From the NCBI GenBank assembly GCA_965208905.1, contig OZ242365.1, forward strand, positions 192,001 to 256,000: a stretch of DNA of 64,000 nt. The letters are read 5' to 3'. Shown here piece by piece: positions 1 to 61,130 of this stretch (position 1 is its first letter; every line of letters begins with the position of its first letter). A program made the translations under genes and the position numbers. The notes under the pieces are model-generated. The model was given only the letters and a program-made list of their open reading frames with translations, was not told the origin of the DNA and ran no database searches. Source of the DNA: Nitrosopumilaceae archaeon (GTDB lineage Archaea > Thermoproteota > Nitrososphaeria > Nitrososphaerales > Nitrosopumilaceae).

Positions 1-53
1 TTAGGCGCACAACGCCCAACAGTCATATAGAGAACATATCTTATATTATAGAC

Positions 54-46367: not shown

Positions 46368-47453
46368 ATGGTGGATAAGAGAGTACGTATCGCAGGCATA
46401 ATAGGGGCACTGGCTTTCTCTGCATGGGTACTGACATCACCATCAGATCCCCTACCCATACCAGCACCGTCTGGTGAGGGACCTGAAGACTCTGTAGTCA
46501 TATTGGCAGAAGATTTAGAGAGGCCAAGGCACATAGCTGTAATAGATGATTATGTATTTGTTACAGAGCGGGAAGGGCGTATACGATTGGTGGATAATGG
46601 GACACTACTCGAAAGGCCAGTAGCAGTACTGCGGCCTGTTGAGGACTTTGATATAGGACTCAGTGGCGTTGCAGTGCATCCAAACTATAACGAAAATGGA
46701 TTGTTATACGCATACATATCCTACAGAGAAGATGGCACACTATACAATAAAGTCATGAAGATAACGCTGGTAGAGAATAGATTGGTGGATGCCATACCAA
46801 TTATAGAGCATATACCGGGATCCCGATTCTCCAACGGTGGTGTAGTAAAGTTTGGGCCTGACGGTATGCTATACATAGGAACCGGTACACCTTCAGACTC
46901 ATCCCATCTACCTCAGGATATAGACTCGTTGGCTGGAAAGATACTGCGCATACATGATGATGGAGCCATACCAACAGATAATCCGTATAAAGATTCGCCG
47001 GTATACTCACTTGGTCATCGTAACATCAGAGGCATGGACTGGGACAGTACAGGAAGATTATACATATCCGAAGAGGGTCCTGACAAAAACGATGAGATAA
47101 GCCTCATAACACCCGGTGAAAATTATGGTTGGCCAGAGAGTGAGTGTTATGGTTCAGGTTATGCCAATGCCACAATATGTTATGATCCTGCCATAGAGCC
47201 AGGGGGCATAGCATTCTCAAATGGTGTCGCGGCTACATCAGGTCATCTGTTGTTGGCATCATTACGGGGCGGTGGGCTCTTTGAGATAGACGTAAATGAA
47301 GGTCTATCATCACAAAAAATTCTCTTAAGTGGTGTTGGACGCATTCGGGATGTGGTCCAGAGTGAAGATGGCACAATATACGTGATAACCTCAAATACAG
47401 ATGGTAAAGGATTTCCCGCCGAGAGTGATGATAGACTGCTGATGCTACGATAG
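46368..47453 (+). CDS. PQQ-dependent sugar dehydrogenase (GSDH family), membrane-anchored
   Basis: VTEREGRI, FGPDGMLYI.TG, LAGKILRI..DG.IP.DNP, GHRN, G.NYGWP, GRIRDV. Confidence 0.92.
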   Translation: MVDKRVRIAGIIGALAFSAWVLTSPSDPLPIPAPSGEGPEDSVVILAEDLERPRHIAVIDDYVFVTEREGRIRLVDNGTLLERPVAVLRPVEDFDIGLSGVAVHPNYNENGLLYAYISYREDGTLYNKVMKITLVENRLVDAIPIIEHIPGSRFSNGGVVKFGPDGMLYIGTGTPSDSSHLPQDIDSLAGKILRIHDDGAIPTDNPYKDSPVYSLGHRNIRGMDWDSTGRLYISEEGPDKNDEISLITPGENYGWPESECYGSGYANATICYDPAIEPGGIAFSNGVAATSGHLLLASLRGGGLFEIDVNEGLSSQKILLSGVGRIRDVVQSEDGTIYVITSNTDGKGFPAESDDRLLMLR

Positions 47454-47601
47454 CACAGGCCAGATGTGGTCTTGAATTATACTGGACAGTTGTAAAAGAC
47501 AACAGGTCAAGATGGCCTCCAATATCAAGGGGCGCCGGGCGCATACATTATCAGGTTCCTCCCGCAAAGTCGGGTGATGGTTGATGTGTTGTTGGATAGT
47601 G

Positions 47602-47608
47602 TTAAATA
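47602..47608 (+). promoter_or_regulatory. probable TATA box of tnpB (element 1)
   Basis: TTAAATA about 20 nt upstream of ATG 47628/47631, consistent with a leaderless archaeal mRNA. Confidence 0.45.
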
Positions 47609-47627
47609 CGTTATTAAACCGTACTAT

Positions 47628-49145
47628 ATGATGGCTCTTGTAAAAAATAGTAGGGCAATAACACGTACATACACAAAAAATTTGGGTATGCAGTACGTGT
47701 TTGAGCATGTCAGGAAGGTGGCAGAAGTGGCGTACATTATAGCAGATAACACGGGGAAGAATACCTATGGTGTTAACGCATTGATGTATCGTACAATGCG
47801 CGGCCCTGACCCCAAAGTACATTCGTCCATAACGCAGACCGCCATACGGGACGGGGTTGCCGCCCATAACACGTACAATACAAAGACTGCGCAGGGCATG
47901 AAGGTATCTGAGCCCGTGTTTCGCAATCCGGTTGTAAAGTTGAAAAACCAAAATTGGAGGCTGAATCCGATAGCGGGTGGATATATGACTATTGCAAATG
48001 TTGGCTCATCAAAACACCCACATATGATAGCAATTCCCATCTCTTCAGATGTGGTACGCCGCATAGGACAAAATGAGTTGGGCGAGTTGTGGATCACGCC
48101 GACCACATACACCATAACGTATTACAACAAAGTGCCCGAGGTTGACAAGCCCCACCCATACGGCAAGTCAGAGATTATCGAGTTGCTTACGGATGTGGGG
48201 TATGTGGGCGGCACACCAAAGGATGTAATTGGCGTAGATATCAATGAGAAGAACATCACCGTAGGAGATAAAGATACAATGGTACAGTTTGATCTATCCG
48301 ATACGATACAGGCCATTGAAGACGCAAAGACTGAGGATGCAAACAATACGTATACACGTACACATGATAATGCTGTATATGCGGCACGTACCGGAAGGCG
48401 TGTTGTATACAAGAAAGAGGAGGAGCGCAGAGAAAAACAACAAGTTGTGTGTGGCGGTCCCAAGTTACACAGCAAACTCAAACGCAGATACAGAAAACTC
48501 AAGAGGGAGGGCAAACACAAGAGGGCCGCGGAGATAAAGAAGCAGATGAATAAATGCATATTAAACATACAGCATAACCACACAAAGTCAAAGAAGAATG
48601 CTAAAAAGCGCAAGGTGGCCAAAGCCGTGCGCCATCATGAACATGTGCTGAATGTGATGGCACTATGCATCGCACAGTGGGCCGCACAGTCTGGGTGTTT
48701 GGTGGTGTTGGAGGATTTAACCCGCATATCGTATAATTGGCAGAAGGGTGGAAGGTTTGGACGTATGATGCGTCGCAGGTTATATTCTGCCATGATGCGA
48801 AAGGCATCGGATTTAATTTATGAAAAGTCCCGGTTTTTGGGAGTGGAGGCATTACATATGCGTCCACACAACACATCCAAGCTATGTGCTGCGTGCAGAA
48901 CCATACTAACTGGAACTTATCATAGAAAAGACTGCACCCGCTGCCATATAGTTGGCGTAGATCGTGACGTCAACGCAGTGGAGAATATACGGCGAACAAG
49001 TGCCGTATCCCGATATGGTCGTCAGGTTTCGGCCAGTCTGGGCGAAGTCCGTCGTGGTGTGGATGTAATCCTCGATCCCACACCACTCATACAGGGTTGC
49101 TGGAGCAACTGGGCTGACAGACTATCCCGCATAGCGGGGGTGTAA
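47628..49145 (+). CDS. tnpB: TnpB-family RNA-guided endonuclease
   Basis: RuvC-I VIGVDINEKN, RuvC-II VVLEDL, P.NTSKLCAAC...CTRC Zn finger, RuvC-III DRDVNAVENI. The ORF track start (47574) lies inside the TIR. Confidence 0.9.
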   Translation: MMALVKNSRAITRTYTKNLGMQYVFEHVRKVAEVAYIIADNTGKNTYGVNALMYRTMRGPDPKVHSSITQTAIRDGVAAHNTYNTKTAQGMKVSEPVFRNPVVKLKNQNWRLNPIAGGYMTIANVGSSKHPHMIAIPISSDVVRRIGQNELGELWITPTTYTITYYNKVPEVDKPHPYGKSEIIELLTDVGYVGGTPKDVIGVDINEKNITVGDKDTMVQFDLSDTIQAIEDAKTEDANNTYTRTHDNAVYAARTGRRVVYKKEEERREKQQVVCGGPKLHSKLKRRYRKLKREGKHKRAAEIKKQMNKCILNIQHNHTKSKKNAKKRKVAKAVRHHEHVLNVMALCIAQWAAQSGCLVVLEDLTRISYNWQKGGRFGRMMRRRLYSAMMRKASDLIYEKSRFLGVEALHMRPHNTSKLCAACRTILTGTYHRKDCTRCHIVGVDRDVNAVENIRRTSAVSRYGRQVSASLGEVRRGVDVILDPTPLIQGCWSNWADRLSRIAGV

Positions 49146-49290
49146 TCACCCGACTTTGCGGGAGGAACCCATTATCAAAGATGTTTGTAATGTATGAATG
49201 AAATTTACATATTTACAAGACCGCCATCGACCAGGCGTCAGCACACATAAAATAACAAATCTGTCATAGAGTTTTAATATAGACAAAAAA

Positions 49291-50457
49291 ATGATAAAAA
49301 GTGTGGAAAGCGTATGTGTTTTGGGTGCGGGAAGTACAAAGTATGGAAAGTTAGATGATAGCATAGTAGACATAACCGTACAGGCATCAGCAGATGCAAT
49401 AAACAGTGCAGGAATAGAGCCTGCCGACATAAAGGCCGGATACATATCCAATGTATTTGGCATAGCAGACAAACAAGTGCATCTAGGACCTGTAATTATG
49501 AGTAACCTTGGTATTTCAGACAGACCATCATTATCCATAGAGTCCGCATGTGGCAGTGGCTCTGTCTCGTTTAGGGAGGCATATGCCAATGTGGCGGCAG
49601 GATTCTACGACTGCCTATTGGTAGCAGGTACAGAGAAGGTCACCCACACCGGTACCGAATGGACTACCACGTACTTTGCATACTGCTCAGACTTCTTCCA
49701 TGAAGGGTCTGCAGGCGCATCGTTCCCAGGACTGTTTGCAGCCATGGCACGTGCCTACCTGACCGAATTTGGCGCCACCGAAGAGGACTTTGCGCAGGTT
49801 GCAGTAAAAAACCACAACAATGGAATACTCAATCCAAAGGCGCATTTGAGAAAGAAGATAACCATAGATGATGTTATGAAATCGGCCGTGGTAGCCAGTC
49901 CGCTCAAGCTGTACGACTGCTGTCCATTCTCAGACGGGGCCAGTGCCGTCATATTATGTACAGAAGAGTTTGCCAAGAAGACAGGCGGCGACTACATAAA
50001 AGTAACAGGATCCGGACGTGGAGGTTCGCCAGCAGCATTGCAGGGACGGGAGCACATTACAACAATTCCCAGTACAGTAATAGCATCAAGATCAGCCTAC
50101 AAGATGGCAGGTATAACTGCCAAAGATGTGGACTTTGCCGAAGTACATGACTGTTTTACAATAGCCGAAATAGTAGATACTGAAGATTTGGGATTCTTTG
50201 AGAAGGGTAAGGGTGTGGAAGCTGCTCGAGAAGGTAGAACCGCACTAAATTCAGACATATCAATAAACCCCTCTGGAGGTCTAAAGTCAAAGGGACATCC
50301 CATTGGTGCTACCGGTGTGGGGCAAGTAGTTGAGATGTATGATCAGTTAACAGGCCAAGCAGGTCCCCGGACCGTACATGATGCACATATAGGACTTACT
50401 CATAACTTTGGAGCCACCGGGGCCAGCTGCGCCGTCCATATCTTTGAAAGTGTTTAA
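49291..50457 (+). CDS. thiolase (acetyl-CoA C-acetyltransferase)
   Basis: ESACGSG, KNH.N...NP.A, DCCPFSDGA, EVHDCFT, NPSGGLKSKGHPIGATG. Confidence 0.95.
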   Translation: MIKSVESVCVLGAGSTKYGKLDDSIVDITVQASADAINSAGIEPADIKAGYISNVFGIADKQVHLGPVIMSNLGISDRPSLSIESACGSGSVSFREAYANVAAGFYDCLLVAGTEKVTHTGTEWTTTYFAYCSDFFHEGSAGASFPGLFAAMARAYLTEFGATEEDFAQVAVKNHNNGILNPKAHLRKKITIDDVMKSAVVASPLKLYDCCPFSDGASAVILCTEEFAKKTGGDYIKVTGSGRGGSPAALQGREHITTIPSTVIASRSAYKMAGITAKDVDFAEVHDCFTIAEIVDTEDLGFFEKGKGVEAAREGRTALNSDISINPSGGLKSKGHPIGATGVGQVVEMYDQLTGQAGPRTVHDAHIGLTHNFGATGASCAVHIFESV

Positions 50458-50458
50458 A

Positions 50459-50824
50459 ATGTCCACTCGTCAAAAATTTATTGATGCCGCCCAAAGTGGT
50501 AAAGTACTACTATTACAGTGCAAGAGATGTAATACAATGCATACATCTACGGTGTGTTTCTGCAAAAAGTGTGGCTTCTCAAAGTTTGAGGACAAGGTAG
50601 TTCAAGGGATTGGCAAGGTAGTCACATATACCATAATTACTGTTCCACCGGCGGGTTTTGAAGAGTATACACCCTATGCGTTTGTTGTTGTAAACCTTGA
50701 TGATGTAGACCAGCGAATATCTGGGTTCATGGGAGGGATCTCTACACCTGCAGATTTACCAGTGGGGTCTGCAGTCCGTGTATATGGATACGATGAGCGC
50801 GGTCTATTGATAAAGTTTCACTAA
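50459..50824 (+). CDS. DUF35 Zn-ribbon/OB-fold thiolase partner
   Basis: C.RC...C..CG, GKV.TYT.I.VPP.GF..Y.PY; directly follows the thiolase. Confidence 0.9.
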   Translation: MSTRQKFIDAAQSGKVLLLQCKRCNTMHTSTVCFCKKCGFSKFEDKVVQGIGKVVTYTIITVPPAGFEEYTPYAFVVVNLDDVDQRISGFMGGISTPADLPVGSAVRVYGYDERGLLIKFH

Positions 50825-50855
50825 CTTTATAAAATGATAAAGGATCATTCCTTGT

Positions 50856-51041
50856 ATGGTAATCGATGTTTATTGTGGAAAGTGCAATACAAAAATAGGA
50901 TCAACAAATATACTAAAGCCCATCAAGCAGATATCTGGAGTCGAAGATGGAAAGTGTCCATCCTGCGGACATAAAGTATCACTGTCAAACTTCACATTGG
51001 ATGTAGTAAAGTCCACCTCCAAGTATGGCTCTCTAGAGTAA
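50856..51041 (+). CDS. small zinc-finger protein
   Basis: CGKC ... CPSCG in 61 aa. Confidence 0.7.
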   Translation: MVIDVYCGKCNTKIGSTNILKPIKQISGVEDGKCPSCGHKVSLSNFTLDVVKSTSKYGSLE

Positions 51042-51191
51042 CATGTGATATAATGGGCCATACATCTCATACACCACACAAGATATCGGCTACATCTAAG
51101 GAATCATCATTTTCTAATGTTATAATAATCACCAATCTCTACAAAATGAGTAGAACCTAACTATTAATTACAACTTTGATGTAACCAGTCC

Positions 51192-53090
51192 ATGGATAAG
51201 TGGGTTGGCGATATGTTTGAAGAGCCAGAGAACGAGTCGGTCATGCCAACCCGGGTCAAAAAGATCTTTTCAGCCATGGACAGTCCCCAGAGATTGAGAA
51301 TTCTTAGGGCACTAAACTCAAAAGGTCCGCTCAGTTATTCAGAGCTTAAAAGACTTGCCGGCTTTCATCCCAAAAGTGAGAGTGGTAAGTTCGCATATCA
51401 TCTGCGCAGCTTGGACAATCCGGGTCTGGTATTGTTGGACAAAAATACCAAACGGTACGACATTACTAATCTAGGAAAGATGTCCATAAGTCTGGTAAAA
51501 CAGATAGAAGAAAAGTCCATTCATGAGTCCAGTCGAATGTACGTGAGAACATCTCATCAGGCCATAGAAGAGTTTAACGCAGATAAGATAATGCGATCCT
51601 TGGTACGTGAGGGGAGTATGCCCATGGATCTTGCGCAGCGCATCACCGAAGAGACGGAGAACCGCATATACAAGTATCAGACATCTCATCTTACAGGGCC
51701 TCTAATTCGAGAGTTGGTGAATGCCGTACTTTTGGAGGGCGGACATGAAGGCTATAGGAGCAAGATGGCCCGGTTGGGCATTCCCGTGCATGATCTACAA
51801 GAGATGCTGACAGATGTCGATAGCGTGATGGCCGGTTTAGAACACATAATGCTAACTGCAGGGCGGCGGGTATTTGTAGAGTATCTACTAACTAATACAT
51901 TGCAGCGAGATGTGGCAGACATGTATCTGTCAGGTGGCATTCACATATCAAATCTGGCTTTATGGCCACTGGCACCAGATACAATATTTCTGAATATCAA
52001 CGACATCATACCGCAGAGTGACATAAAGATATCAAGTCTAGTCAAGATGCTCAACCATGTATTGTGGGAGGCATCCAGTGAAGTTGTAATAGATGGCATA
52101 TCCAATATCGACTCAATATCGCAGTATATGGCAGACACTCTCATCATGATGCACGCACCCCACGGTGCGGCCCACCTGTCACTATATGTACCATTGAACT
52201 CAAAGTCCATACATGGCATATTAGAGGCGTACAAGACCTATGTCAAAAGTGTGGACACTCCCACAGCAGGGCTTGTCATAGATACAAAAGATACCAAGAT
52301 TGCAGAATTTTCAGACATATTATCAGATATTATAAAATGTAACGGAGTCATAACTATTACCAAACAAAAGTCTGGTAAAAGTGGTATCATAGACAGTAAC
52401 GATAAGGGGGCATCAGCAAAGATGCACTCGCTGGCCATAAATCTGCCTAGTTTGGCTTACGAGTCAGAGGGTGATGAGGCGTACTTTCGGGCAAAGTTAG
52501 CAATGAGTATGGAACCCATAATATCAGCATTGGAGTCAAGACGAAAGGATATTGCCGACATTACACGTTGGGGGCTTAATCCGATTCTTGCAGAGAACAT
52601 CATAAAGCAAGAGAAAAGGTCTGTAAATATCACTATCAATTTAGTGGGAATGCATGAGGCCATGACTCACATTTTAGGAGACGATTACCCGCCCAAAATG
52701 GTGCTCAAAGTATTAGAGACTGCCAACCATGTTGTATCAAAGATTAGTGGTAAGACAGGTCTCCCCATACTGATATCCATGATACATGCAGATGGCATCT
52801 CCCGTCTGGTGGAATTAGACGCAAAGAAGTACGGTAAAGACAAGGTGTATAATATGCAGGATGGTAGATATCAGCACGGTGTCAGTATAGATGTACGTCA
52901 GACCATAATACCAGGACAACTAGATCGCATAATATCAAATGCAAAGAAGGCTGCTGCTGTTTTGGGTGGAGGCCTGTACACCGAATTGTCATACCAAAAG
53001 AGTACGCCGCAGTCAGATATCATACGTGGAATAGAGTTGTTATCAGATCATCTCAACTTTACAGTAAAGCTCAAACACGACTCATCTTAA
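51192..53090 (+). CDS. winged-HTH + ATP-cone + degenerate class III ribonucleotide reductase-like protein
   Basis: N-terminal RLRILRAL...LSYSEL...GKFAYHLR.L; ATP cone MYVRTS...EEFNADKI..SL..E; YL...L..DVA...LSG.IHI and SLAINLP.LAYES as in NrdD. Confidence 0.75.
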   Translation: MDKWVGDMFEEPENESVMPTRVKKIFSAMDSPQRLRILRALNSKGPLSYSELKRLAGFHPKSESGKFAYHLRSLDNPGLVLLDKNTKRYDITNLGKMSISLVKQIEEKSIHESSRMYVRTSHQAIEEFNADKIMRSLVREGSMPMDLAQRITEETENRIYKYQTSHLTGPLIRELVNAVLLEGGHEGYRSKMARLGIPVHDLQEMLTDVDSVMAGLEHIMLTAGRRVFVEYLLTNTLQRDVADMYLSGGIHISNLALWPLAPDTIFLNINDIIPQSDIKISSLVKMLNHVLWEASSEVVIDGISNIDSISQYMADTLIMMHAPHGAAHLSLYVPLNSKSIHGILEAYKTYVKSVDTPTAGLVIDTKDTKIAEFSDILSDIIKCNGVITITKQKSGKSGIIDSNDKGASAKMHSLAINLPSLAYESEGDEAYFRAKLAMSMEPIISALESRRKDIADITRWGLNPILAENIIKQEKRSVNITINLVGMHEAMTHILGDDYPPKMVLKVLETANHVVSKISGKTGLPILISMIHADGISRLVELDAKKYGKDKVYNMQDGRYQHGVSIDVRQTIIPGQLDRIISNAKKAAAVLGGGLYTELSYQKSTPQSDIIRGIELLSDHLNFTVKLKHDSS

Positions 53091-53340
53091 AGTCGCGGCG
53101 AGGCTGCTGAAGAGACAGTAGTATCTGTTTTAACTGCTCATCAGTGACAGGGGGACTCAGACGGCCCTGAGTCATCATGGAAAGTAGATAATTTTCGACC
53201 TGTGTGGCCAAATCTGGTCGGACCATGCGAACATTGCCCAATCGTAGACGTGACTCGGGATTAAGGATTCGACGTAATAGTGCATCTTTTTGTGCAGCAG
53301 CTTCATTGGCCTGTTCATCATTAAATTCAGGAGTGCTCAT
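53071..53340 (-). CDS. PDCD5-like DNA-binding protein
   Basis: LRRIL.PE.R.RL.NV.MV.P.LA..VE..L; adjacent to rps19e. Confidence 0.9.
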   Translation of the reverse strand: MSTPEFNDEQANEAAAQKDALLRRILNPESRLRLGNVRMVRPDLATQVENYLLSMMTQGRLSPPVTDEQLKQILLSLQQPRRDFKMSRV

Positions 53341-53342
53341 AT

Positions 53343-53795
53343 CTACATGTATACCCGAAGTTTGGGATTCTCCTGTACCATCTCTTTGAGTATGTCAGTG
53401 GATAGATTGTCTAACTTTTTCATGCCTGCAGAGGTTACGACACGTCCCCTCTTATCTATCGCCTCTACCAAGCCCAACTTCTCCAAACCATGTACGGCAT
53501 TGCGAATTATGGCACCACCACCAGCGCGGTGATGTGCGGCTCCATATCCAGACGGCTTTCCGCCTCCGTACTCTTTGCGCAACCTGCTAATTCCAACAGG
53601 GCCCTCCAAGTATATCTTGCGCAGAATAGATGCGCAACGGGTGTACCACCAGTCTTTTTGATGGGGCGGTCTGTCAGCATGTACTCCAGTCTTTACAAAT
53701 ATCGTCCATTCGGGCTTCTCTATACCACTATCCTGCAGGTATTGTGCTGTACGTGTGATGAGCTCGTGTGGCGGTACATCATATACTTTTGCCAT
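53343..53795 (-). CDS. rps19e: 30S ribosomal protein S19e
   Basis: VYDVP, PEW..FVKTG, WWYTR.ASILRK.Y..GPVG...L...YGG. Confidence 0.97.
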   Translation of the reverse strand: MAKVYDVPPHELITRTAQYLQDSGIEKPEWTIFVKTGVHADRPPHQKDWWYTRCASILRKIYLEGPVGISRLRKEYGGGKPSGYGAAHHRAGGGAIIRNAVHGLEKLGLVEAIDKRGRVVTSAGMKKLDNLSTDILKEMVQENPKLRVYM

Positions 53796-53930
53796 ATTTT
53801 TTTATTTTCTTGTCTATTTATAAATCATAATTGAGCAGAAGAGCGTTTTATAATTTATCACCTTGGTCAACACCACCTAACTTTCAACGTATCAAAGTCA
53901 TACAAGTTGTGATGACGTAATAGATATCTC

Positions 53931-54512
53931 TTGATTATGCGCACTCCCCTAGGACACATCTTTGTATATGAAGACAGGTATATAATTCCCCCATACACCA
54001 CATGTACAGTGTATATTGTATCTGTGTTGTTGTGTATTTGTATTATATTGGTAGCAGGAGATGCATATGCGCACTCTCTATTCAACTCTGCTGAAGAGTT
54101 CTATGGTGGATATAGGGTACAAGTAGCAACAACTCCTGAATTTCCCCAGATAGACGAGATCTCGACAATTCTAATCCGTGTGACAGACGAAGACTTTGAG
54201 GAGGTTGATAGCTTCACCATGGGTCTGCGATTCTTTTATAATGATCTACAAGTAGATGCTGTGCCGCCCCAGAGCCACCAGGGAGGACACTGGGATATCG
54301 ACTACATCTGGAAGAAAGAGGGAAATCACATAGTGATGGTGGATATGTATAGTGTGAATGGAGATAGCACAGACATATTGACATATACGTTCAACATGGG
54401 AACTCAGAGTCCGTTTGGATATATCTTCATATCCGCCATAACCGTGGGCGCCCTTACATTTACAGGAATAATGACATACATCTATCTTCCAAAGATACTG
54501 CGGCGCCGTTGA
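53931..54512 (+). CDS. membrane-anchored hypothetical protein
   Basis: Leader ending AYAH, Ig-like body, C-terminal TM. True start uncertain. Confidence 0.7.
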   Translation: MIMRTPLGHIFVYEDRYIIPPYTTCTVYIVSVLLCICIILVAGDAYAHSLFNSAEEFYGGYRVQVATTPEFPQIDEISTILIRVTDEDFEEVDSFTMGLRFFYNDLQVDAVPPQSHQGGHWDIDYIWKKEGNHIVMVDMYSVNGDSTDILTYTFNMGTQSPFGYIFISAITVGALTFTGIMTYIYLPKILRRR

Positions 54513-54673
54513 ATTTGGCATTTCTGTATAGACAGCCCAAGTATCATCTATAGTATAGAAGGAGTATACGTTAATGTCCAAAGGCATACACCATACAGAA
54601 TAGTTGGATGCCTGTGACGGTTGGCTGCTTACCACCCTACCTATATGATATCATAGTACAGTAGTTTCAAGAG

Positions 54674-55117
54674 TTATGTGTGCGCAGGCATCTCTATCTT
54701 TGATATGCGAAACGCAAAGAGGGTGGTTAATAGCACCATTGAAAACAACAGTATGCCTATACCCAGATGTATGGCGACTAGTACGGCGTGCAGATTCATA
54801 TCGATTACCAAGGCACCTAGTGTTATCTGAGTAACAACAAAGGCGGATGCCAAAGAGCTGGTCAGTTTTATCTTCAGGTCGGCACGCTTGTTCATGTATG
54901 ATGCGACCATTGTAGCAAGTACCAATGCACCCGTAGTGGCAGCTATCAGGCGATGCACCCATTCTATGAGATACTCTTCAGATGGCATCACGCCATTAGG
55001 ACACAGTGGCCACTCCGGGCAGGTCAAGCCCAAGCCAGCAGCAGAGATGTACCCGCCAATAAACATCAGCGAATAGAGTACTATCATTGTACATAATGCT
55101 AGATACTGTATAGCCAA
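54674..55117 (-). CDS. ctaA: heme A synthase (short COX15/CtaA)
   Basis: GL.CPEWPLC, EW.HR, Q..LG...V..H. Confidence 0.88.
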   Translation of the reverse strand: MAIQYLALCTMIVLYSLMFIGGYISAAGLGLTCPEWPLCPNGVMPSEEYLIEWVHRLIAATTGALVLATMVASYMNKRADLKIKLTSSLASAFVVTQITLGALVIDMNLHAVLVAIHLGIGILLFSMVLLTTLFAFRISKIEMPAHT

Positions 55118-55121
55118 GATA

Positions 55122-56072
55122 CTATTCCACTATGAAGGTCCCTTGCATGCCTTGTAGTGCATGGCCAGGAACTGTACATATGTAATAGTAGGTTCCAGGC
55201 GTATCTGCCACAAAGTTTACCTGACCGCTCTGACCTCCAGTCAGGGGTATATTTGCGGAACCTATTGCAGAGTCCCACATTATGGAATTAAAGTTTGCGG
55301 GATCCCGTACTATCGCAAATGAATGGAACGATATTCCTTGGTTTGTAGAAGAGATATTCACCTCATCTCCAGCGGTTACACGAATTTCAGGGTTTGCTCC
55401 TTCTGTACCGGGAACAGCAGAGAATGCAAACGTCAAAAAGTCATCGGACTCGTAAAAGTCCAGTGTAAAGTCATGGACAGTTCCAGTGGGCTCTACGGCA
55501 GATTCCTCTTGGCCGGCCGCACCAACAATTATCTCACCTACCATTCCCTGTTCGCGGTGACCAGGAACAGTACAGAGATAGTAGTAAGTACCTTCGCTAG
55601 GTGGTATGAACTCGGATGTGCCTGACTGGCCGTTTGTTAGGGGGTTCATTGCAGTTCCTATCTCAGAGCCTGGAAATATTCCTTCAGTACCACTCTCTTC
55701 GGCAGTAACACCAAAGGAGTGAAATGATATACCCTCACTGACTACGTTGAACACAATCTTGTCGCCTACTTGAGCGTTGATCGTCGGATTTGCGCCAGGT
55801 TCACCTAGTACCTCATTAAATGAAAAGTCTCTAAAGTCTGCAGACTCTACAAATACCAGATCTACCGTAAGTAGACTGCCGGTGAAGGAGCCCAACTCTT
55901 GCTCAACGGCCTCGCTCATTATTGCCACTATGGGAGGAGCTTCAGATATCCAATAGTCCCATAGTCCAAAGAATATACCGCCACCAGATATGCAGATGCC
56001 CAGCATTATGGCCATCATCTTGGCGGTCCTAGCAGGACTCGTTCTCATTATTGGTGTGTCTTCATTTACCAT
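55122..56072 (-). CDS. membrane-anchored blue copper protein with two cupredoxin domains
   Basis: Two copies of HSF ... YYY.CTVPGH..QGM.G. Confidence 0.92.
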   Translation of the reverse strand: MVNEDTPIMRTSPARTAKMMAIMLGICISGGGIFFGLWDYWISEAPPIVAIMSEAVEQELGSFTGSLLTVDLVFVESADFRDFSFNEVLGEPGANPTINAQVGDKIVFNVVSEGISFHSFGVTAEESGTEGIFPGSEIGTAMNPLTNGQSGTSEFIPPSEGTYYYLCTVPGHREQGMVGEIIVGAAGQEESAVEPTGTVHDFTLDFYESDDFLTFAFSAVPGTEGANPEIRVTAGDEVNISSTNQGISFHSFAIVRDPANFNSIMWDSAIGSANIPLTGGQSGQVNFVADTPGTYYYICTVPGHALQGMQGTFIVE

Positions 56073-56082
56073 ATCTTATCAC

Positions 56083-57609
56083 CTAATGATGTGGGTTCTT
56101 TTGGGTATGCGGATAGTAGTAGCGGCCACCCAACCCAAATGGATCCTCCATATTTGCCTCTGGTCCTTTTGCAGAACTATATATCATATTACCCAACCAA
56201 ATGGCCATGCTGATTCCAATGAGCATGGCGCCAACTGTAGCTATCTGATTCATGGCAATCCACTCAGGTATAGGTGGATAGTCGTATATGCGTCTGGGCA
56301 TTCCGTATAGTCCTAGTACATGTTGTGTAAAGAATACCATTACAGTTCCTATCATGGCCAACACAAAGTGTATCTTGCCCAATACTTCGTGATACATACG
56401 GCCAGTCACGTATGGGAACATGTAGTATACATATCCTATTGTGCCAAATGCAATAGTTCCCATTACAAAGAGATGGAAGTGGCCCACCACCCAATAAGAG
56501 TCGTGCGTAACAAAGTCCAAGGGCATGGCGCTGTTTACCACACCACCAGCTCCAGCCGAGAAGAAGAGTGCAATTCCACCTACAGCCCACATCATGGGTG
56601 TGGAGAATCGTATACGACCACCCCACATGGTAGCGAGGAAGTTAAAGACATGCATTGCCGATGCTGGAACCGCCGCCAGTGTACCCACCATAAAGACAGT
56701 CTTCTCTGTGAATGACATGCCAGTGGCATACATGTGGTGCGCCCAAGACGAGAATCCCACTATGGCCAGTATTATAAAGGCGGCCAGTCCTGAGGCATGA
56801 CTAAAGATGGGTTTGCGGGAGAAGCGAGGGATTATCTCATACATCATGCCTATGGCAGGTATGACCAGTACATACACTTCAGGGTGGAATGTAAACCAAA
56901 AGAGGTGTGCGTATGCGATGGGGTCGCCACCCATGGCAGGATTAAAGAATCCCGAGACGCCCAACCTGTCTGTAAGCAACATAAGTAGTGCAGCAGCAAA
57001 TGTTGGGAGTGCCACTAGTATTATCAAGGATGATGAGAGAAATGACCATGCCAATAACGGAACCTGACCTAGCGACATGTCTGGGTGTTTGCACTTCATT
57101 ATAGTTACAACAAAGTTGATGGCTCCCAGTATGGAGGAGACTCCCAGTATCTTTAGGCCGAATATCCACATGTCTGCGGCAGGACCTGGTGCGCTGATTA
57201 TAGAGTAGGGTGGCGTGGCATACCAAGTAAAGTCGGCAAACCCTAGCCATATCAAGGCCCCTCCTGGAGGAATCATCCAAAAGGCTATGGCGTTTAGTTT
57301 TGGATACGCCATATCCTTGTAGCGTACCATTATTGGAACAAAGTAGTTTCCCACCGCCGATGCCGAAGGCAATATGAACAGAAATATCAATGTGGTGCCG
57401 TGTACTGTAAACATACGGTTGAACGTCATGGAGTCGGCGATAATCTGTGAGCCCGGAAAGAAGAGCTCCGCTCGGATGGCCAGCGCCAATGCGCCTCCCA
57501 AAAACAGAAATCCCAAAGACATTATCAGGTATAGAAGGCCCACATCTGTGTGGTGTGTTGAGAACATTATCTGCCAGATGGGTCGTGGTTTGTGCAGTTC
57601 CAGTACCAT
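56083..57609 (-). CDS. coxA: heme-copper oxidase subunit I
   Basis: FTVHG, FWFTFHPEVY, WAHHM, VVGHFH, GMPRR. Confidence 0.97.
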   Translation of the reverse strand: MVLELHKPRPIWQIMFSTHHTDVGLLYLIMSLGFLFLGGALALAIRAELFFPGSQIIADSMTFNRMFTVHGTTLIFLFILPSASAVGNYFVPIMVRYKDMAYPKLNAIAFWMIPPGGALIWLGFADFTWYATPPYSIISAPGPAADMWIFGLKILGVSSILGAINFVVTIMKCKHPDMSLGQVPLLAWSFLSSSLIILVALPTFAAALLMLLTDRLGVSGFFNPAMGGDPIAYAHLFWFTFHPEVYVLVIPAIGMMYEIIPRFSRKPIFSHASGLAAFIILAIVGFSSWAHHMYATGMSFTEKTVFMVGTLAAVPASAMHVFNFLATMWGGRIRFSTPMMWAVGGIALFFSAGAGGVVNSAMPLDFVTHDSYWVVGHFHLFVMGTIAFGTIGYVYYMFPYVTGRMYHEVLGKIHFVLAMIGTVMVFFTQHVLGLYGMPRRIYDYPPIPEWIAMNQIATVGAMLIGISMAIWLGNMIYSSAKGPEANMEDPFGLGGRYYYPHTQKNPHH

Positions 57610-57645
57610 GTTATGTAATCCCTCCATGCACGGTTAAAATTCTTT

Positions 57646-58077
57646 TCAAGATGGGTCCTCCACGTATAGTTTTCCTCGCATGTTATAGTGAATTAGACCG
57701 CAGTATTCACGGCACTGAATATCGTACTCCCCAGCTTCGGTGGGAGAGAACCATACAGTGTTAATACGACCAGGCACGGCATCCAACAACACCACATAAT
57801 CATGTATGTTAAATGAGTGATTTACATCAGTCGATGTTATCTCAAATTTGTACGCCTTGCCGGTCTCCAGATGTAGTTCGCCCACCTCCTTTGTACCATC
57901 TTCATGCTCAAATGTCCAGAACCACTGCTGGCCGACCACTTTAATTATCTCAGCGTCTTCGGGTACATGCTCCACCAATCGCTCCACATTCCAGGCTTCA
58001 GCTCCCACCCAACAGAGTAGAGCTACCACGACTCCTATGTACACCCACTCAGGCCAGCTAGAATGTTCATCAGACAT
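57646..58077 (-). CDS. coxB: heme-copper oxidase subunit II (CuA domain)
   Basis: GQQWFW.F, DVNHSF, DAVPG, CREYCGLIHYNM. Confidence 0.94.
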   Translation of the reverse strand: MSDEHSSWPEWVYIGVVVALLCWVGAEAWNVERLVEHVPEDAEIIKVVGQQWFWTFEHEDGTKEVGELHLETGKAYKFEITSTDVNHSFNIHDYVVLLDAVPGRINTVWFSPTEAGEYDIQCREYCGLIHYNMRGKLYVEDPS

Positions 58078-58078
58078 A

Positions 58079-58330
58079 CTACCAATCAGTCCCCTCATAT
58101 TTGGTTGGTTTTGCATTTGGGTGAGACTCTCTGAATCTCCATATCAGCCATATTATTGTACCAGATACAACAGCCCCTATTGTAATTGCAACCACCATCA
58201 TTCTAAAGAATAGATTCCATATCTCAACACGACGATCAAGATACTCGCCGGGTTCGGCGGTGGCAGCAAACGCCACATTAACTGTAAACATAACCGCCAT
58301 CATAACTAAAGCTCCAATAATGTATCGCAT
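58079..58330 (-). CDS. small membrane protein resembling the N-terminal TM part of oxidase subunit II
   Basis: IWNLF..MMVVAI.IG.VV......IWRFR; first gene of the cox cluster. Confidence 0.75.
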   Translation of the reverse strand: MRYIIGALVMMAVMFTVNVAFAATAEPGEYLDRRVEIWNLFFRMMVVAITIGAVVSGTIIWLIWRFRESHPNAKPTKYEGTDW

Positions 58331-58604
58331 TCCCTATTCACGATTCTATTAGGAATTCTATTTAATGGTTTACAGGGGTATGTCCTACTAGTATAAAGCT
58401 CCCGGAGTTTCCCCCGGCGACCTTATATCAGTAGCATAATTGGATACATCCAGGCGGTCGTCCAGAGATGGTGACTCATCACCCACATAAAGCAAGCTCC
58501 TCGCCTCCCCTTTAGGCCGCCGCCCTTCACCGTCGCATGGAAACCACAAGACGATACAGTCCAACAATTGTTGAACGCACTGCTCCCAATCCCAGTCTTA
58601 GTCA

Positions 58605-60075
58605 TGGGCTGTGACGTTATCTGCGCGTGTCCCAAGACAGCGCGTTTGACAACCCGTCGTATAGTTGAGTAGACAAATCTCCTGAATACACCGCTTAAAT
58701 ACCACCGAACTCATTGTATAATATGAAGTACAAAGACGAAAAGTACGTCATAAAGACTCTACAGTACCGTCTTAAGATATCCACCAGACTCACTCGATAC
58801 TTTAACTCAATGTATTCGGAATCCCACATATGGCTCAATGCAGGAATAAGGGCGCGTAAGGCTGGACTGACGGTGTTTGACACCAATAAGATAGCCACTA
58901 TATGCCAGACCATCCCCCAGGCCTGGGTTCGCGGCGCCATACGTGAAGGCCACAAGATAGAAGGCTGTACGCATGTAAGATATGGTAGGAAGGTTTACCC
59001 CCTGTTTAGTAACGTGCCACTCGGTAAAAAATCCAAAGGTACAACGGTGTATTTCCCAAGATGTAATATACCATTCAAACTACAGAAAGGGCATCTACCC
59101 AATACATCCCAATCATATAAGATAGTGGATGTCACGAACACTACAGACAAGGAGAGGCAGTTCGAACTACATGTAACTATACGTGAGCATGTCCCGGACC
59201 GCGTAGCGACGGGTGTACATGCTGGTATTGATATGGGTGGTAAGCACACGCTTGTTGTTGGAAAGTCCGATGGTAGTATTGCCATGCTGACATTACGTGA
59301 GAAGGATACTATACGGAACATAGCGCGTATGCAAAAGAAGATGAGTAGGTGCAAACTTCACTCCCGCAAGTGGCGCAACCTGCATGATACATTAAACAGC
59401 ATATACCGTAAGTTGGGAAATAGACAGAAAGACAAGCTGCGCAAGTTCTCAAAGAAACTAATGCGGCAGTGTGATAGAATAATCATGGAGGGGATGAACC
59501 TCCGTACAATGACGACCAAGGGTCCCGGGCAGACGCCCAAAAATCGTACGATGCGACAAAGTCATTGTGGTGAGGCGCGGGAGCACATTTCACAACAATA
59601 CCTACGATATAATGTAGAATATACGGAGATAAACCCAAAGAATACCTCAAAGCAGTGCTGTATGTGCGGTAGTTTGAATACGTGGCGCAAGAGCAGTAAG
59701 TTTAGGTGTCATAACTGCGGTATAGTGTGTCATGCGGACATCAATGCGGCATTCAACATACTTTTCGCTTTTCGTATTATACAGTGGAGTAAGCGCGCTC
59801 AGGGCGTTTATTCCCTACAAAACAAGGCTGGAATGGTCTTGAGAGGAAAGATACATCTCGCGACACTTACTATACCCAGTGTCGTTGGTGATGTGATGGC
59901 CGGTACAGGCTGTCACCAGGCTAGGCGTCAAAACCCGGCTGACAATGAACGTCTCTTGGAAACTCCTCTGGATGGTAATTTGCCAACATTTGTTGTACTG
60001 GGCGCAGGCCCAACTGTATAGCAGCTGTATTGAGTACGCGCATGTATGGACACGCGCAGATAACGTCACAGCCCA
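58605..60075. mobile_element. 1471-bp non-autonomous TIR element carrying only tnpB
   Basis: Perfect 28-bp TIR TGGGCTGTGACGTTATCTGCGCGTGTCC (58605-32 / 60048-75); 8-bp TSD CTTAGTCA (58597-604) vs CTTGGTCA (60076-83), one mismatch. Confidence 0.9.
58723..60021 (+). CDS. tnpB: TnpB-family RNA-guided endonuclease
   Basis: KTLQYRL N-terminus, RuvC-I AGIDMG, RuvC-II IIMEGMN, INPKNTSKQCCMCG...FRCHNCG, RuvC-III HADINAAFNI; CTTAAATA box at 58694-58701. Confidence 0.93.
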   Translation: MKYKDEKYVIKTLQYRLKISTRLTRYFNSMYSESHIWLNAGIRARKAGLTVFDTNKIATICQTIPQAWVRGAIREGHKIEGCTHVRYGRKVYPLFSNVPLGKKSKGTTVYFPRCNIPFKLQKGHLPNTSQSYKIVDVTNTTDKERQFELHVTIREHVPDRVATGVHAGIDMGGKHTLVVGKSDGSIAMLTLREKDTIRNIARMQKKMSRCKLHSRKWRNLHDTLNSIYRKLGNRQKDKLRKFSKKLMRQCDRIIMEGMNLRTMTTKGPGQTPKNRTMRQSHCGEAREHISQQYLRYNVEYTEINPKNTSKQCCMCGSLNTWRKSSKFRCHNCGIVCHADINAAFNILFAFRIIQWSKRAQGVYSLQNKAGMVLRGKIHLATLTIPSVVGDVMAGTGCHQARRQNPADNERLLETPLDGNLPTFVVLGAGPTV

Positions 60076-60290
60076 CTTGGTCATATGACATGAGTCTATA
60101 AGATGCCTTGTGGCTTTGCAGTACTTTGGTGAAGTGTTATTAACTATTTTGCTTCATTGGTTGTCAAAGATGAGGTGTGCAGCCAAATGCTCTATACGTA
60201 ACAGTACAACAGACAAAATAACAGATAGTTTAGAGGATACCTTTGTACAACAAAGAGACTACATCTACAATACCAACGAGTTGCCCTAGA

Positions 60291-61130
60291 ATGATAAACC
60301 TACTGGATGTGGTAAGATGGACATTCAGGCGTAGTCCATCAGATATAATACGACTCTACAACTCCCTCTCAGGAGTCATGGTCACAGCCACTGGAGGGGC
60401 CAGCCTCAACTTTGGACTGTGGTCGGACGACTGTGTTGAACCACTCTTGGCGCAGGACAATATGGCGCGACACTTTGGCAGGATGGCAGACTTGGATACG
60501 GCCAGTGTCGGGGCGGATGTTGGTTGTGGGCGGGGCGGACCTGCTAAAATATGGCAACAGTTGTATCCTGACTTTGATATAATAGGAGTAGACGTAAACC
60601 GTAGAGGTCTAGTAGAGGCCAAGCGTCTGGACCTTGCAGTCAATGCACTCTCTACTAGTCTACCTCTAGCCAATAACTCGATGGATCGTGTGCTTGCACT
60701 AGAGTCTGCGCAACATTTTCGTCCACTGTCAGTATTCACCAATGAAGCTGCCCGCGTATTGAAGCCTGGCGGCATACTATGTATGGCCATACCAGTCGTC
60801 GGACGACAGTACCACATAAGCCGATTGGGAATGCTTTGGTTGACATGGACATCTGAGCATTACAATGTATCGACCATACATGAGGCAATCAAAGCATCTG
60901 GGCTCCATATACAATATGAAGAGATGGTTGGTCCCATGGTGTATCTGCCGATGGCCAACTACTATATGAATAACAGAGACAGATTACAGGAGAGAATCAC
61001 AGCCACATATCCTAGATATGTAGAGTCAATACTGTATCGCTCCATACTAGACATGAGGCGGGCTTCCACACAGGATGTTATTGAGTATATGATTATAAAA
61101 TGTATAAAGCCATCACATGAGCGTATATGA
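60291..61130 (+). CDS. class I SAM-dependent methyltransferase
   Basis: LNFG.W, DVGCGRGG, ALESAQHF, RVLKPGG. Confidence 0.9.
   Translation: MINLLDVVRWTFRRSPSDIIRLYNSLSGVMVTATGGASLNFGLWSDDCVEPLLAQDNMARHFGRMADLDTASVGADVGCGRGGPAKIWQQLYPDFDIIGVDVNRRGLVEAKRLDLAVNALSTSLPLANNSMDRVLALESAQHFRPLSVFTNEAARVLKPGGILCMAIPVVGRQYHISRLGMLWLTWTSEHYNVSTIHEAIKASGLHIQYEEMVGPMVYLPMANYYMNNRDRLQERITATYPRYVESILYRSILDMRRASTQDVIEYMIIKCIKPSHERI

What the first reader, a model, noticed from the sequence alone, without database searches (positions are those of the whole stretch)
47546..60083. Convergent architecture: two independent TnpB captures with shared flanking motifs suggest a class of TIR-TnpB elements
Seen: the two proteins look only distantly related (RuvC-I GVDINEKN vs GIDMGGK; D-E spacing 158 vs 86 aa) and the TIRs differ. 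Even so, both have the order TSD-TIR-TTAAATA box-tnpB-TIR-TSD. Both TSDs fit C-N4-TCA. Both have TTGAY just inside the left TIR (TTGAT 47581-85; TTGAC 58646-50) and TCAC inside the right TIR (49146-49; 60066-69). Established: TTGAT is the ISDra2 target/TAM, and TCAC/TCAA-type tetranucleotides mark many IS605 right ends. Inference: either IS605-type tnpB units inserted into small MITEs and now move with them, or DDE elements repeatedly recruit TnpB for RNA-guided retention at vacated sites. Two examples cannot establish a motif.
Basis: partly seen in the sequence, partly recalled or inferred. Interest (0 to 1): 0.75.

Follow-up and report, generated by a model that had tools for sequence, protein, structure and literature searches.

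The report
TnpB genes riding DDE-type transposon ends
Both elements are real insertions of small mobile units that carry only an RNA-guided nuclease gene (tnpB) between the inverted-repeat ends typical of IS6-like cut-and-copy transposons, a rarely described arrangement that here looks built for RNA-guided homing.

Summary
The architecture is real. Element A (47554-49169) has perfect 25-bp TIRs and an 8-bp TSD. Element B (58605-60075) has perfect 28-bp TIRs and a 7/8 TSD. A sister genome (G083) has both sites empty, each with one copy of the 8-mer.

Both are multi-copy families. The host genome has 74 tnpB loci in 8 clusters, and no Y1 or serine TnpA was found. The clusters sit inside IS6-like, IS1595-like or other TIRs. 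The same ends flank DDE transposase genes, transposase plus restriction-modification cargo, and MITEs. I read these as non-autonomous DDE-type elements with tnpB plus omegaRNA as cargo, moved in trans. TIR type and TnpB tree disagree, so ends were swapped or captured repeatedly.

A different motif does. WTA lies directly 5' of the left TSD in 14 of 15 family-A sites, and TTA in 5 of 5 sites of a 35%-identical family in G083. It is not mirrored on the right, which is where a TAM should lie. The 3' 200 nt of A holds a structure with 15 compensatory pairs.

DDE-linked TnpBs with inverted ends were reported in 2023, so this is a new variant, not a new class.

The parts
47543..47545 (+). ATA: TAM-like motif directly 5' of the left TSD of element A
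   Evidence: TA at -2,-1 in 14 of 15 family-A left flanks (binomial P 1e-15 against genome TA frequency 0.070). The 15th has TTA before a 9-bp TSD. Not mirrored on the right: 2 of 16. TTA in 5 of 5 sites of the related G083 family.
47546..47553 (.). Left target-site duplication CATTATCA (element A)
   Evidence: Identical 8-mer at 49170-49177. Single copy at the empty site in G083.
47554..47578 (+). Left TIR of element A, GGTTCCTCCCGCAAAGTCGGGTGAT (IS6-like: GG tip, CAAA)
   Evidence: I1. The same TIR type bounds a decayed IS6-like transposase element at G000:C1:926302-927837.
47602..47608 (+). TTAAATA, likely archaeal TATA box of tnpB-A
   Evidence: GTTAAATAC is invariant in 12 of 12 full copies. 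It lies about 20-26 nt before the in-frame ATG at 47628. Promoter function is inferred.
47628..49145 (+). tnpB-A. The open frame starts at 47574; likely starts are ATG 47628 or TTG 47682; the stop TAA 49143-49145 overlaps the right TIR.
   Evidence: Pfam Cas12f1-like_TNB 2e-6. D186/E344/D429 and 4 Cys are invariant in 20 homologues. AF2 model pLDDT 74.8; Foldseek top hits Cas12f 8e-12, TnpB 1.6e-7, Fanzor2 3e-7. dN/dS 0.20 among 9 intact copies.
48970..49169 (+). Structured 3' region (candidate omegaRNA scaffold), ending at the right TIR
   Evidence: 41 pairs, 98% of cells paired, 15 pairs with compensatory changes against 0-3 in slid controls. Many G-U pairs place it on the sense strand. RNA-library contigs cover 48768-49158, 48926-49145 and 48786-48994.
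49145..49169 (-). Right TIR of element A
   Evidence: I1: 100% complementary to 47554-47578.
49170..49177 (.). Right TSD CATTATCA. In the model, the first 8 nt of the guide.
   Evidence: The guide role is inferred.
58597..58604 (.). Left TSD copy of element B, CTTAGTCA (one G>A change)
   Evidence: The G083 empty site has a single CTTGGTCA.
58605..58632 (+). Left TIR of element B, TGGGCTGTGACGTTATCTGCGCGTGTCC (IS6-like: GG..CTGT)
   Evidence: I1. A second copy with the same TIR and TSD GTTCAGAG lies at G000:C1:2209813-2211265. It resembles the TIR GGGGCTGTTAAGTTAACG of the IS6-like tnp element L116.
58695..58701 (+). TTAAATA, likely TATA box of tnpB-B
   Evidence: It lies 22-28 nt before the in-frame ATG at 58723. 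Inferred.
58714..60021 (+). tnpB-B (435 aa from TTG 58714; ATG at 58723)
   Evidence: NCBIfam guided_TnpB 113.3 bits (cut-off 100). Pfam OrfB_IS605 and TNB. PDB sequence hits to ISDra2 TnpB, 4.6e-8.
60048..60075 (-). Right TIR of element B
   Evidence: I1.
60076..60083 (.). Right TSD CTTGGTCA (element B)

Best explanation
Both window elements are non-autonomous transposons of the DDE kind. They have IS6-family-like inverted ends and make 8-bp target duplications. Their only cargo is an RNA-guided nuclease module: tnpB plus a structured 3' RNA that runs into the right end.

They do not move like IS200/IS605 elements. IS6-like DDE transposases encoded elsewhere in the genome recognise the shared GG..CTGT-type ends and copy the elements into new sites. 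This trans-mobilisation is inferred from matching ends, a composite element and deletion derivatives.

The TnpB module most likely does what it does in IS605: RNA-guided homing or retention. A transcript reading out of the right end carries the right TSD plus flank as its guide. At an empty allele that same sequence sits directly 3' of a short motif (WTA for family A), which would serve as the TAM, so the empty allele is cut and repaired from the occupied copy. At the occupied allele only 8 nt match, so it is spared.

Shown: insertions, TIRs, TSDs, family structure, shared ends with transposase elements, intact catalytic residues, purifying selection, the flank motif and the covarying RNA structure.

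Inferred: trans-mobilisation, the guide, the TAM role and homing.
For: Insertions and families
- Perfect TIRs and TSDs. Empty sites for both elements in G083.
- Family A: 12 full copies plus derivatives. 9 of 12 full copies and a 585-bp deletion derivative have their own TSDs. One pair is 99.7% identical with different TSDs.
- 10 of 12 copies keep a frame of at least 500 aa. dN/dS is 0.20.

Transposases
- Not found in the genome: Y1_Tnp (0 matches) and Resolvase (0 matches). There are 74 TNB-domain loci over the cut-off.
- About 13 IS6-like tnp genes. Pfam DDE_Tnp_IS240 6e-15. Best NCBIfam hit is IS6, 101 bits, below its 125 cut-off.
- IS1595 transposase scores 176 bits.

Shared ends
- The family-B4 TIR has the same architecture as the TIRs of IS6-like tnp elements.
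- The A/c3-type TIR bounds a decayed IS6-like tnp element. That element and a c3 tnpB element are together flanked by one 8-bp repeat, TTAAACTC.
- The c0/c4/c6 TIRs share GGGAATTATA with the IS1595 tnp element.
- IS6-type MITEs (8 copies of 171 bp) and tnp+R-M cargo elements use the same kind of ends.
- IS6 family hallmarks (8-bp repeats, GG tips, cTGTt, caaa) are taken from PMC7986276, passages read.

Flank motif
- 14 of 15 and 5 of 5.
- Cluster c3 has the same TIR as A but a different motif: TT at -3,-2 in 9 of 10 sites.
- IS6 MITEs without tnpB show TA at -2,-1 in 1 of 8.

RNA
- structure; RNA-library contigs over 48768-49158.

Fold and catalytic residues
-.
Against: - No intact transposase gene with family-A-type TIRs was found in this genome. 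The only one is a pseudogene. Yet a 99.7% pair suggests recent movement, so cross-mobilisation has to be assumed.
- The IS6-like transposases score below NCBIfam's IS6 cut-off and carry an extra N-terminal zinc-finger region.
- Family A's TIR lacks the cTGTt motif.
- IS6-family transposition is replicative (PMC7986276, passages). There is then no vacated donor site to restore, which weakens the retention rationale and leaves only homing into empty alleles.
- The two IS1595 tnp elements without tnpB also show G at -1. For that end type the flank motif may therefore belong to the transposase.
- The family-B flank motif is weak: G at -2 in 5 of 8 left ends against 2 of 7 right ends.
- Family-B RNA covariation is modest: 5 of 30 pairs.
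- The covariation in A rests on only two lineages.
- RNA evidence consists of contigs from one study. These cannot show ends, strand or level.
- No Rfam match.
Confidence: 0.7

Rival explanations
1. The left-flank motif is the DDE transposase's own asymmetric target preference, not a TAM. TnpB merely rides along, or has co-adapted to that motif as in IS605.
For: Two IS1595 tnp elements without any tnpB remnant also have G at -1, like tnpB cluster c0. Elements with GGGAAyTAyATAC ends in other genomes have a purine at -1 in 11 of 11 cases across different TnpB clades.
Against: Clusters A and c3 share nearly the same TIR but have different motifs (WTA|Y against ATTG|N). The G083 family has a different TIR sequence but the same TTA|Y motif as its TnpB relative A. 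IS6 MITEs without tnpB show no motif (1 of 8). The TIRs are perfect palindromic pairs, so an orientation-specific preference is not expected from the transposase alone.
Confidence: 0.25
2. IS605-type tnpB units once inserted into pre-existing small MITEs and now hitch-hike. The TIRs and tnpB would be unrelated passengers of each other.
For: MITEs with the same kinds of ends exist in the genome. TIR type and TnpB phylogeny are discordant.
Against: No IS605-type ends and no Y1 TnpA were found. In A the promoter-like box follows the left TIR within 24 nt, and the stop codon overlaps the right TIR. The covarying RNA runs up to the TIR. The same tight layout holds in a 35%-identical relative, so no MITE 'filler' sequence is left.
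Confidence: 0.08
3. TnpB here is domesticated, for example as an RNA-guided regulator like TldR, or is otherwise not a nuclease. The copies would be kept for a host function.
For: Many intact copies under purifying selection.
Against: The D-E-D triad and zinc-finger cysteines are invariant in 20 homologues. Copies sit at different, mostly intergenic sites with TSDs. They are present or absent between sister genomes.
Confidence: 0.04
4. TnpB itself, alone or with a host factor, creates the staggered cuts and moves the element.
For: No intact cognate transposase was found for A-type ends.
Against: A 585-bp derivative lacking most of tnpB has its own TSD. The same end types flank transposase genes and MITEs. 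Recalled, not tested here: TnpB is dispensable for transposition in IS608/ISDra2 and cuts 15-21 nt from the TAM.
Confidence: 0.03

Closest known systems
DDE-transposase-associated TnpB branches (DDE-1 to DDE-6) of Altae-Tran et al. 2023, PNAS (PMC10691335; passages read)
   Same: TnpB sits inside symmetric inverted terminal repeats. Solo TnpBs lie between ends nearly identical to those of transposase-bearing elements, so they are mobilised in trans. The TnpB 3' end lies close to the transposon end.
   Different: That main text names only IS630 for these branches. A 2026 review (PMC13565253, passages) lists ISL2, IS630 and IS1031. Whole-word IS6, IS26 and IS240 do not occur in the PNAS main text; its supplements could not be seen. 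Here the ends are IS6-like and IS1595-like with 8-bp TSDs, the transposase is never in the same element, and a TAM-like motif lies outside the TSD.
IS1341-group (tnpB-only) members of the IS200/IS605 family
   Same: A single tnpB gene of about 1.4-1.6 kb, many diverged copies per archaeal genome, and a motif directly 5' of the left side of the insertion.
   Different: IS200/IS605 elements have no TIRs and make no TSDs (PMC13565253 and PMC3119063, passages). They depend on a Y1 TnpA. Here there are perfect TIRs, 8-bp TSDs and no Y1 gene found in the genome.
IS6 (IS26) family insertion sequences and their MITEs
   Same: 8-bp duplications. Short TIRs with GG tips and CTGT/CAAA motifs. Flank exchange between copies, as expected from replicative or recombinational behaviour.
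   Different: Typical IS6 members are 0.7-0.9 kb and carry their own transposase. Only one member with a passenger gene was known in 2021 (PMC7986276, passages). Here the cargo is tnpB, or elsewhere in the genome an R-M system, and the transposase acts in trans.
Fanzor (eukaryotic TnpB homologues) inside TIR/TSD transposons
   Same: An RNA-guided nuclease carried by DDE-type transposons, with the guide RNA overlapping the right end.
   Different: In Fanzor the fixed TSD (TA, TTAA) is part of the TAM and the 3' TSD is part of the scaffold (PMC13565253, passages). Here the TSD is variable, the motif lies upstream of it, and the TSD would be the start of the guide.

Membership tests
TnpB (OMEGA RNA-guided nuclease) | Split RuvC domain with a D-E-D catalytic triad | tested here: met
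   A: D186, E344 and D429 are invariant in 20 sequences. B: NCBIfam guided_TnpB 113.3 bits, above the cut-off of 100.
TnpB (OMEGA RNA-guided nuclease) | Zinc-finger/TNB domain between RuvC-II and RuvC-III | tested here: met
   PF07282 above cut-off in both: 28.3 and 52.3 bits against 26.3. Four invariant Cys in A.
TnpB (OMEGA RNA-guided nuclease) | TnpB/Cas12f-like fold over the whole protein | tested here: met
   A: Foldseek hits to Cas12f 8e-12, ISDra2 TnpB 1.6e-7 to 2.7e-5 and Fanzor2 3e-7, about 480 aligned columns. TM is low (0.3) and pLDDT is 74.8. B: tested by sequence only.
TnpB (OMEGA RNA-guided nuclease) | Structured omegaRNA encoded at the 3' end of tnpB, reaching the right end | tested here: met
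   A: 41 pairs, 15 compensatory, sense-strand G-U pairs. B: inconclusive, 5 of 30 pairs. Guide function is not testable with these tools.
TnpB (OMEGA RNA-guided nuclease) | TAM next to the sequence that matches the guide at the empty site | tested here: inconclusive
   The geometry fits and the motif is strong for A (14/15 and 5/5). Cleavage was not tested, and the motif for B is weak.
IS200/IS605 family transposon (IS1341 group) | No terminal inverted repeats and no target duplication | tested here: not met
   Perfect 25- and 28-bp TIRs and 8-bp TSDs. Empty sites confirm the duplication.
IS200/IS605 family transposon (IS1341 group) | Y1 (HUH) TnpA available in the genome | tested here: not met
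   PF01797: 0 matches in a genome that is 99.6% complete. The control genomes gave matches.
IS6 family insertion sequence | 8-bp target duplication | tested here: met
IS6 family insertion sequence | Short TIRs with GG tips and cTGTt and caaa motifs | tested here: inconclusive
   B types fit: GGGCTGTGAC, GGCACTGTCAAA, GGAACTGTCCC. A has GG and CAAA but CCTC in place of CTGT.
IS6 family insertion sequence | Own DDE (IS240-type) transposase gene between the ends | tested here: not met
   The only long ORF in A and B is tnpB. Transposase genes with like ends lie elsewhere.
DDE-associated TnpB branches (Altae-Tran 2023) | Inverted terminal repeats shared with transposase-bearing elements | tested here: met
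DDE-associated TnpB branches (Altae-Tran 2023) | Placement of these proteins in one of the named branches DDE-1..6 | not testable with these tools

The most novel reading that the evidence does not exclude
In these archaea the RNA-guided nuclease and the DDE transposase form one working system. The TAM of each TnpB clade decides which IS6/IS1595-type insertions exist at all. It would do so either because TnpB-omegaRNA helps choose the target, or because only TAM-adjacent insertions can home and so reach fixation. The variable 8-bp TSD would be used as the first 8 nt of the guide. That would be a natural solution for coupling RNA-guided homing to TSD-making, replicative transposons. It differs from IS605, from Fanzor and from CAST.
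Probability: 0.25. Interest if true: 0.8.

Novelty: new variant of a known kind. Interest (0 to 1): 0.6.

Why it matters
TnpB is the ancestor of Cas12. Its biology is understood almost only in IS605/IS607 elements, which excise without a scar.

Here a whole archaeal genome has moved its 74 tnpB genes onto DDE-type ends that make 8-bp duplications, and no IS605-type transposase was found. The sites give a concrete, testable geometry (TAM - TSD - element - TSD - flank) for how a guide taken from the flank can still match an empty allele.

If the motif is a TAM, it predicts compact nucleases with 3-nt TAMs (TTA/ATA). It would also show that homing pays even for replicative transposons.

It also shows IS6-like ends acting as a general cargo carrier in this genome: tnpB, restriction-modification genes and MITEs.

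Tried and rejected
C-N4-TCA is not kept across family TSDs. TTGAY and TCAC lie inside the element or the TIR and are not flank signals.
- Long TIRs around the IS6-like tnp genes. A seed-based scan mostly failed. Ends were found only by reading the flanks and by motif search. 11 of 13 IS6-like genes gave no TIR+TSD pair in the strict scan.
- Family-A-only RNA fold. It gave 1 compensatory pair in 70, which is uninformative. It became informative only once the G083 family was added.
- Rfam. No match at E up to 1 in 47000-61000.
- The search for related loci with protein B in genome contigs returned 1 locus only.
- Cluster c5 (TIR TAGAGTTTATGCGTAAT). The TSD is unclear, perhaps TA. Its ends do not match the IS630-like elements of this genome.
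- Cluster c6. IS1595-like ends, but no matching TSD.
- The 1.05-kb and 1.12-kb repeats that clustered with the tnpB elements are separate rve-type and IS630-like ISs, not derivatives.
- RNA contigs. The 5' two-thirds of tnpB-A and nearly all of element B had little or no cover in X1-X4. A contig joint 47748>49089 had only 26 letters on one side. Absence of cover in contigs proves nothing, so none of this is used as evidence.
- The TAM-position difference between G000 (ATA) and the G083 empty site (ATG) is a single observation.
- Literature searches that found no paper on TnpB with IS6- or IS1595-type ends: (listings read). Supplements of PMC10691335 may hold such cases and could not be seen.
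- The tally (9 of 101 genomes) includes one weak match in G077, flagged unpublished. No other claim rests on it.

Full report
**Observation**

Element A has perfect 25-nt inverted repeats at 47554-47578 and 49145-49169. It is flanked by CATTATCA on both sides. Element B has perfect 28-nt inverted repeats at 58605-58632 and 60048-60075. It is flanked by CTTAGTCA and CTTGGTCA.

Each element holds one long ORF.
- B is a clear TnpB: NCBIfam guided_TnpB 113 bits over a cut-off of 100, plus Pfam OrfB_IS605 and TNB.
- A is a divergent relative with only the TNB domain by sequence. The D-E-D triad and four zinc-finger cysteines are invariant in 20 homologues. An AlphaFold model (pLDDT 74.8) matches Cas12f, TnpB and Fanzor2 over its whole length, with Foldseek E down to 8e-12.
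- The two proteins share only a 51-residue stretch at 37% identity.

**Both are true insertions**

A sister genome (G083, about 97% identical in the flanks) has both sites empty. The left and right flanks are contiguous there, with one CATTATCA and one CTTGGTCA. The 7/8 TSD of B is therefore a later G>A change in the left copy.

**Both are multi-copy families**

The window's own genome is 2.21 Mb in one contig.
- It holds 12 full copies of A plus truncated and deleted forms, at 86-92% identity. One pair is 99.7% identical with different TSDs.
- 9 of the 12 full copies and a 585-bp internal-deletion derivative have their own 8-bp TSD (one is 9 bp). All the TSDs differ.
- 10 of the 12 keep an open frame of at least 500 aa. 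dN/dS among 9 intact copies is 0.20.
- Family B has about 12 copies at 73-83% identity. They fall into four subfamilies with different but related TIRs, most with 8-bp TSDs.

**What kind of ends these are**

The genome is full of mobile DNA: 348 kb of repeats. It has 74 TNB-domain loci over the Pfam cut-off. No Y1 transposase and no serine recombinase was found (controls positive).

The 74 tnpB ORFs fall into 8 clusters at 50% identity. I ran a strict scan requiring a TIR of at least 11/14 and an 8-bp TSD of at least 7/8, with about 0.005 false hits expected per locus by my estimate. It found bounded elements at 33 of the 74 loci. Hand inspection added more.

The end types are:
- **Clusters c1 (A), c2 (B) and c3:** ends start GGTTCC, GGGCTGT, GGCACTGTCAAA or GGAACTGTCCC, with 8-bp TSDs.
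- **Clusters c0, c4 and c6:** ends start GGGAATTATATAC.
- **Cluster c7:** ends start GGGTGTGTCCC, with 9-bp TSDs.
- **Cluster c5:** ends TAGAGTTTATGCGTAAT.

The IS6 family is defined by 8-bp repeats and short IRs with GG tips and cTGTt and caaa motifs (PMC7986276, passages).

The genome encodes about 13 IS6-like DDE transposases. They hit Pfam DDE_Tnp_IS240, and their best NCBIfam model is IS6 at 101 bits, below its cut-off of 125. They carry an added N-terminal zinc-finger region. It also encodes IS1595 transposases (176 bits).

Their elements carry the same kinds of ends.
- The IS6-like elements end in GGTTCTGTCAAG, GGAACTGTCAAAAAC, GGGGCTGTTAAG, or (G/T)GAACTGTCCCAAATATAGCGTGTG. The last has the same long architecture as the family-B4 TIR.
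- The IS1595 element ends in GGGAATTATAGTG with 8-bp TSDs.
- A decayed IS6-like transposase gene lies between TIRs of the A/c3 type at G000:C1:926302-927837. That element and the neighbouring c3 tnpB element are together flanked by one 8-bp direct repeat, TTAAACTC. They seem to have moved as one unit on shared ends.
- IS6-type ends also flank eight 171-bp MITEs and two elements that carry a transposase plus methyltransferase/nuclease cargo.

I conclude that A and B are non-autonomous DDE-type elements with tnpB as cargo, moved in trans.

**Spread**

- Protein A's family is narrow. It has 31 clusters in the large protein collection, and the named ones come from Cenarchaeum MAGs. It matched in 9 of 101 Nitrosopumilaceae-level genomes, in 2 of 27 genera.
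- In G083 a 35%-identical family of five copies has TIRs GGTTCTCTCGAAAATACGG and 8-bp TSDs in 5 of 5.
- Of 22 loci of B relatives in six other genomes, 11 have GGGAAyTAyATAC ends with 8-bp TSDs. These include four loci in a second genus.

**Independent association**

I built a FastTree of 22 proteins, up to three per cluster, using only ORFs of at least 400 aa.
- {c1, c5, c7} splits from {c0, c2, c3, c4, c6} with support 1.0.
- c2 (IS6-like ends) pairs with c6 (IS1595-like ends) with support 1.0.
- c3 (IS6-like) pairs with c4 (IS1595-like); no support value was returned for this pair.
- c1 and c3 share almost the same TIR, yet their proteins give no BLASTP hit at E 1e-3.

Ends and nucleases have therefore been recombined several times. 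The tree is midpoint-rooted and has no outgroup.

**A flank motif that does generalise**

- In family A the two bases before the left TSD are TA in 14 of 15 left ends. P is 1e-15 against a genome TA frequency of 0.070. The 15th site has TTA before a 9-bp TSD.
- Position -3 is A or T, and the first TSD base is C (11) or T (4).
- The mirror image is absent on the right: 2 of 16.
- The five G083 relatives all read TTA|Y.
- Cluster c3, with A-type TIRs, instead has TT at -3,-2 in 9 of 10 sites (ATTG-like).
- Cluster c0 has G at -1 in 11 of 13 sites.
- The tnpB-less IS6 MITEs show TA in 1 of 8.

The motif thus follows the nuclease clade more than the ends. It sits exactly where a TAM must sit if the guide is read from the right flank: at an empty site the order is WTA - 8-mer - right flank.

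Two observations go against this reading. Two tnpB-less IS1595 elements also have G at -1. Family B's motif is weak.

**RNA**

I aligned the last 200 nt of six A copies and the five G083 relatives.
- The alignment folds into 41 pairs with 98% of cells paired.
- 15 pairs have changes on both sides, against 0-3 when partners are slid.
- One 9-bp stem has 7 compensatory pairs.
- Many G-U pairs are valid only on the tnpB sense strand.

This rests on two lineages. The structure ends at the right TIR and overlaps the end of the ORF, as in omegaRNAs.

Contigs from four sponge metatranscriptome runs of one study cover 48768-49158, 48926-49145 and 48786-48994. They carry differences that point to sibling copies. 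Contigs cannot give ends or strand.

Family B shows conserved blocks but only 5 of 30 compensatory pairs. Rfam has no match.

**Comparison with what is known**

IS200/IS605 and IS1341-type elements lack TIRs and TSDs (PMC13565253 and PMC3119063, passages). As transposons, A and B fail that membership test, although their protein is TnpB.

TnpBs linked to DDE transposases were reported in 2023 (PMC10691335, passages). That paper described inverted terminal repeats and solo TnpBs lying between the same ends. A 2026 review lists ISL2, IS630 and IS1031. Neither main text names IS6 or IS1595, and the supplements were closed. The class is therefore known.

What this case adds:
- IS6-like and IS1595-like ends with variable 8-bp TSDs.
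- A whole genome's tnpB set carried on such ends, with no IS605 machinery found.
- A composite tnpB+tnp unit.
- The TAM-like motif outside the TSD.
- The covarying 3' RNA.

**Verdict**

Noticed in passing
L113:1-3360 (G000:C1:18695-22054) and L116:1-3409 (G000:C1:1130912-1134320): IS6-like TIR pairs enclose an IS6-like transposase plus restriction-modification-like cargo: an adenine methyltransferase and an unassigned ORF. L113 has the 8-bp TSD GAATTTTT. The 2021 IS6 review knew only one IS6 member with a passenger gene.
   Followed up: partly
G000:C1:347829-347999, 470002-470172, 470822-470992, 474681-474851, 489410-489580, 644882-645052, 1779678-1779848, 1928312-1928482 (outside the window): Eight 171-bp MITEs have IS6-type ends. 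Two have matching TSDs. The other six have flanks exchanged among copies, in one closed cycle of four and one swapped pair. This is the pattern expected from replicative transposition or recombination between copies.
   Followed up: partly
L115:81-3138 (G000:C1:924780-927837): A composite unit: a c3 tnpB element, an 8-bp spacer AGCGTTGA and a decayed IS6-like transposase element with the same TIR type. The whole is flanked by the direct repeat TTAAACTC.
   Followed up: yes
window 58372-58593: A 222-bp piece of another TIR-tnpB family lies right beside the left end of element B. That family is cluster c7: 1.73 kb, ends GGGTGTGTCCC, 9-bp TSDs. The same piece is present at the G083 empty site.
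   Followed up: partly
window 47545 against the G083 empty site (L072): The base just before the target 8-mer is A in the occupied genome (ATA) and G in the empty allele (ATG). The proposed TAM is thus altered in the empty allele. This is a single observation and may be chance.
   Followed up: no
G000:C1:157876-161563 (outside the window): A 3688-bp element has IS6-type ends (GGAACTGTCAAAAAC) and TSD GTATTGAC. It carries an IS6-like tnp and about 2 kb of unexamined cargo. It abuts a 5'-truncated family-A copy at 161568-163066.
   Followed up: no
whole genome G000: About 15.7% of the 2.21-Mb genome is repeated DNA (348 kb). It has 74 tnpB loci in 8 clusters, at least 14 rve-type ISs (about 340 aa) and 9 IS630-like ISs (342 aa). 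No Y1 or serine TnpA was found.
   Followed up: partly
window 47748 and 49089: One RNA-library contig (run X2) joins 47748 to 49089, skipping 1340 nt. This would be a short deletion derivative of family A that I did not find in the genome. Only 26 letters lie on one side, so it is weak.
   Followed up: no
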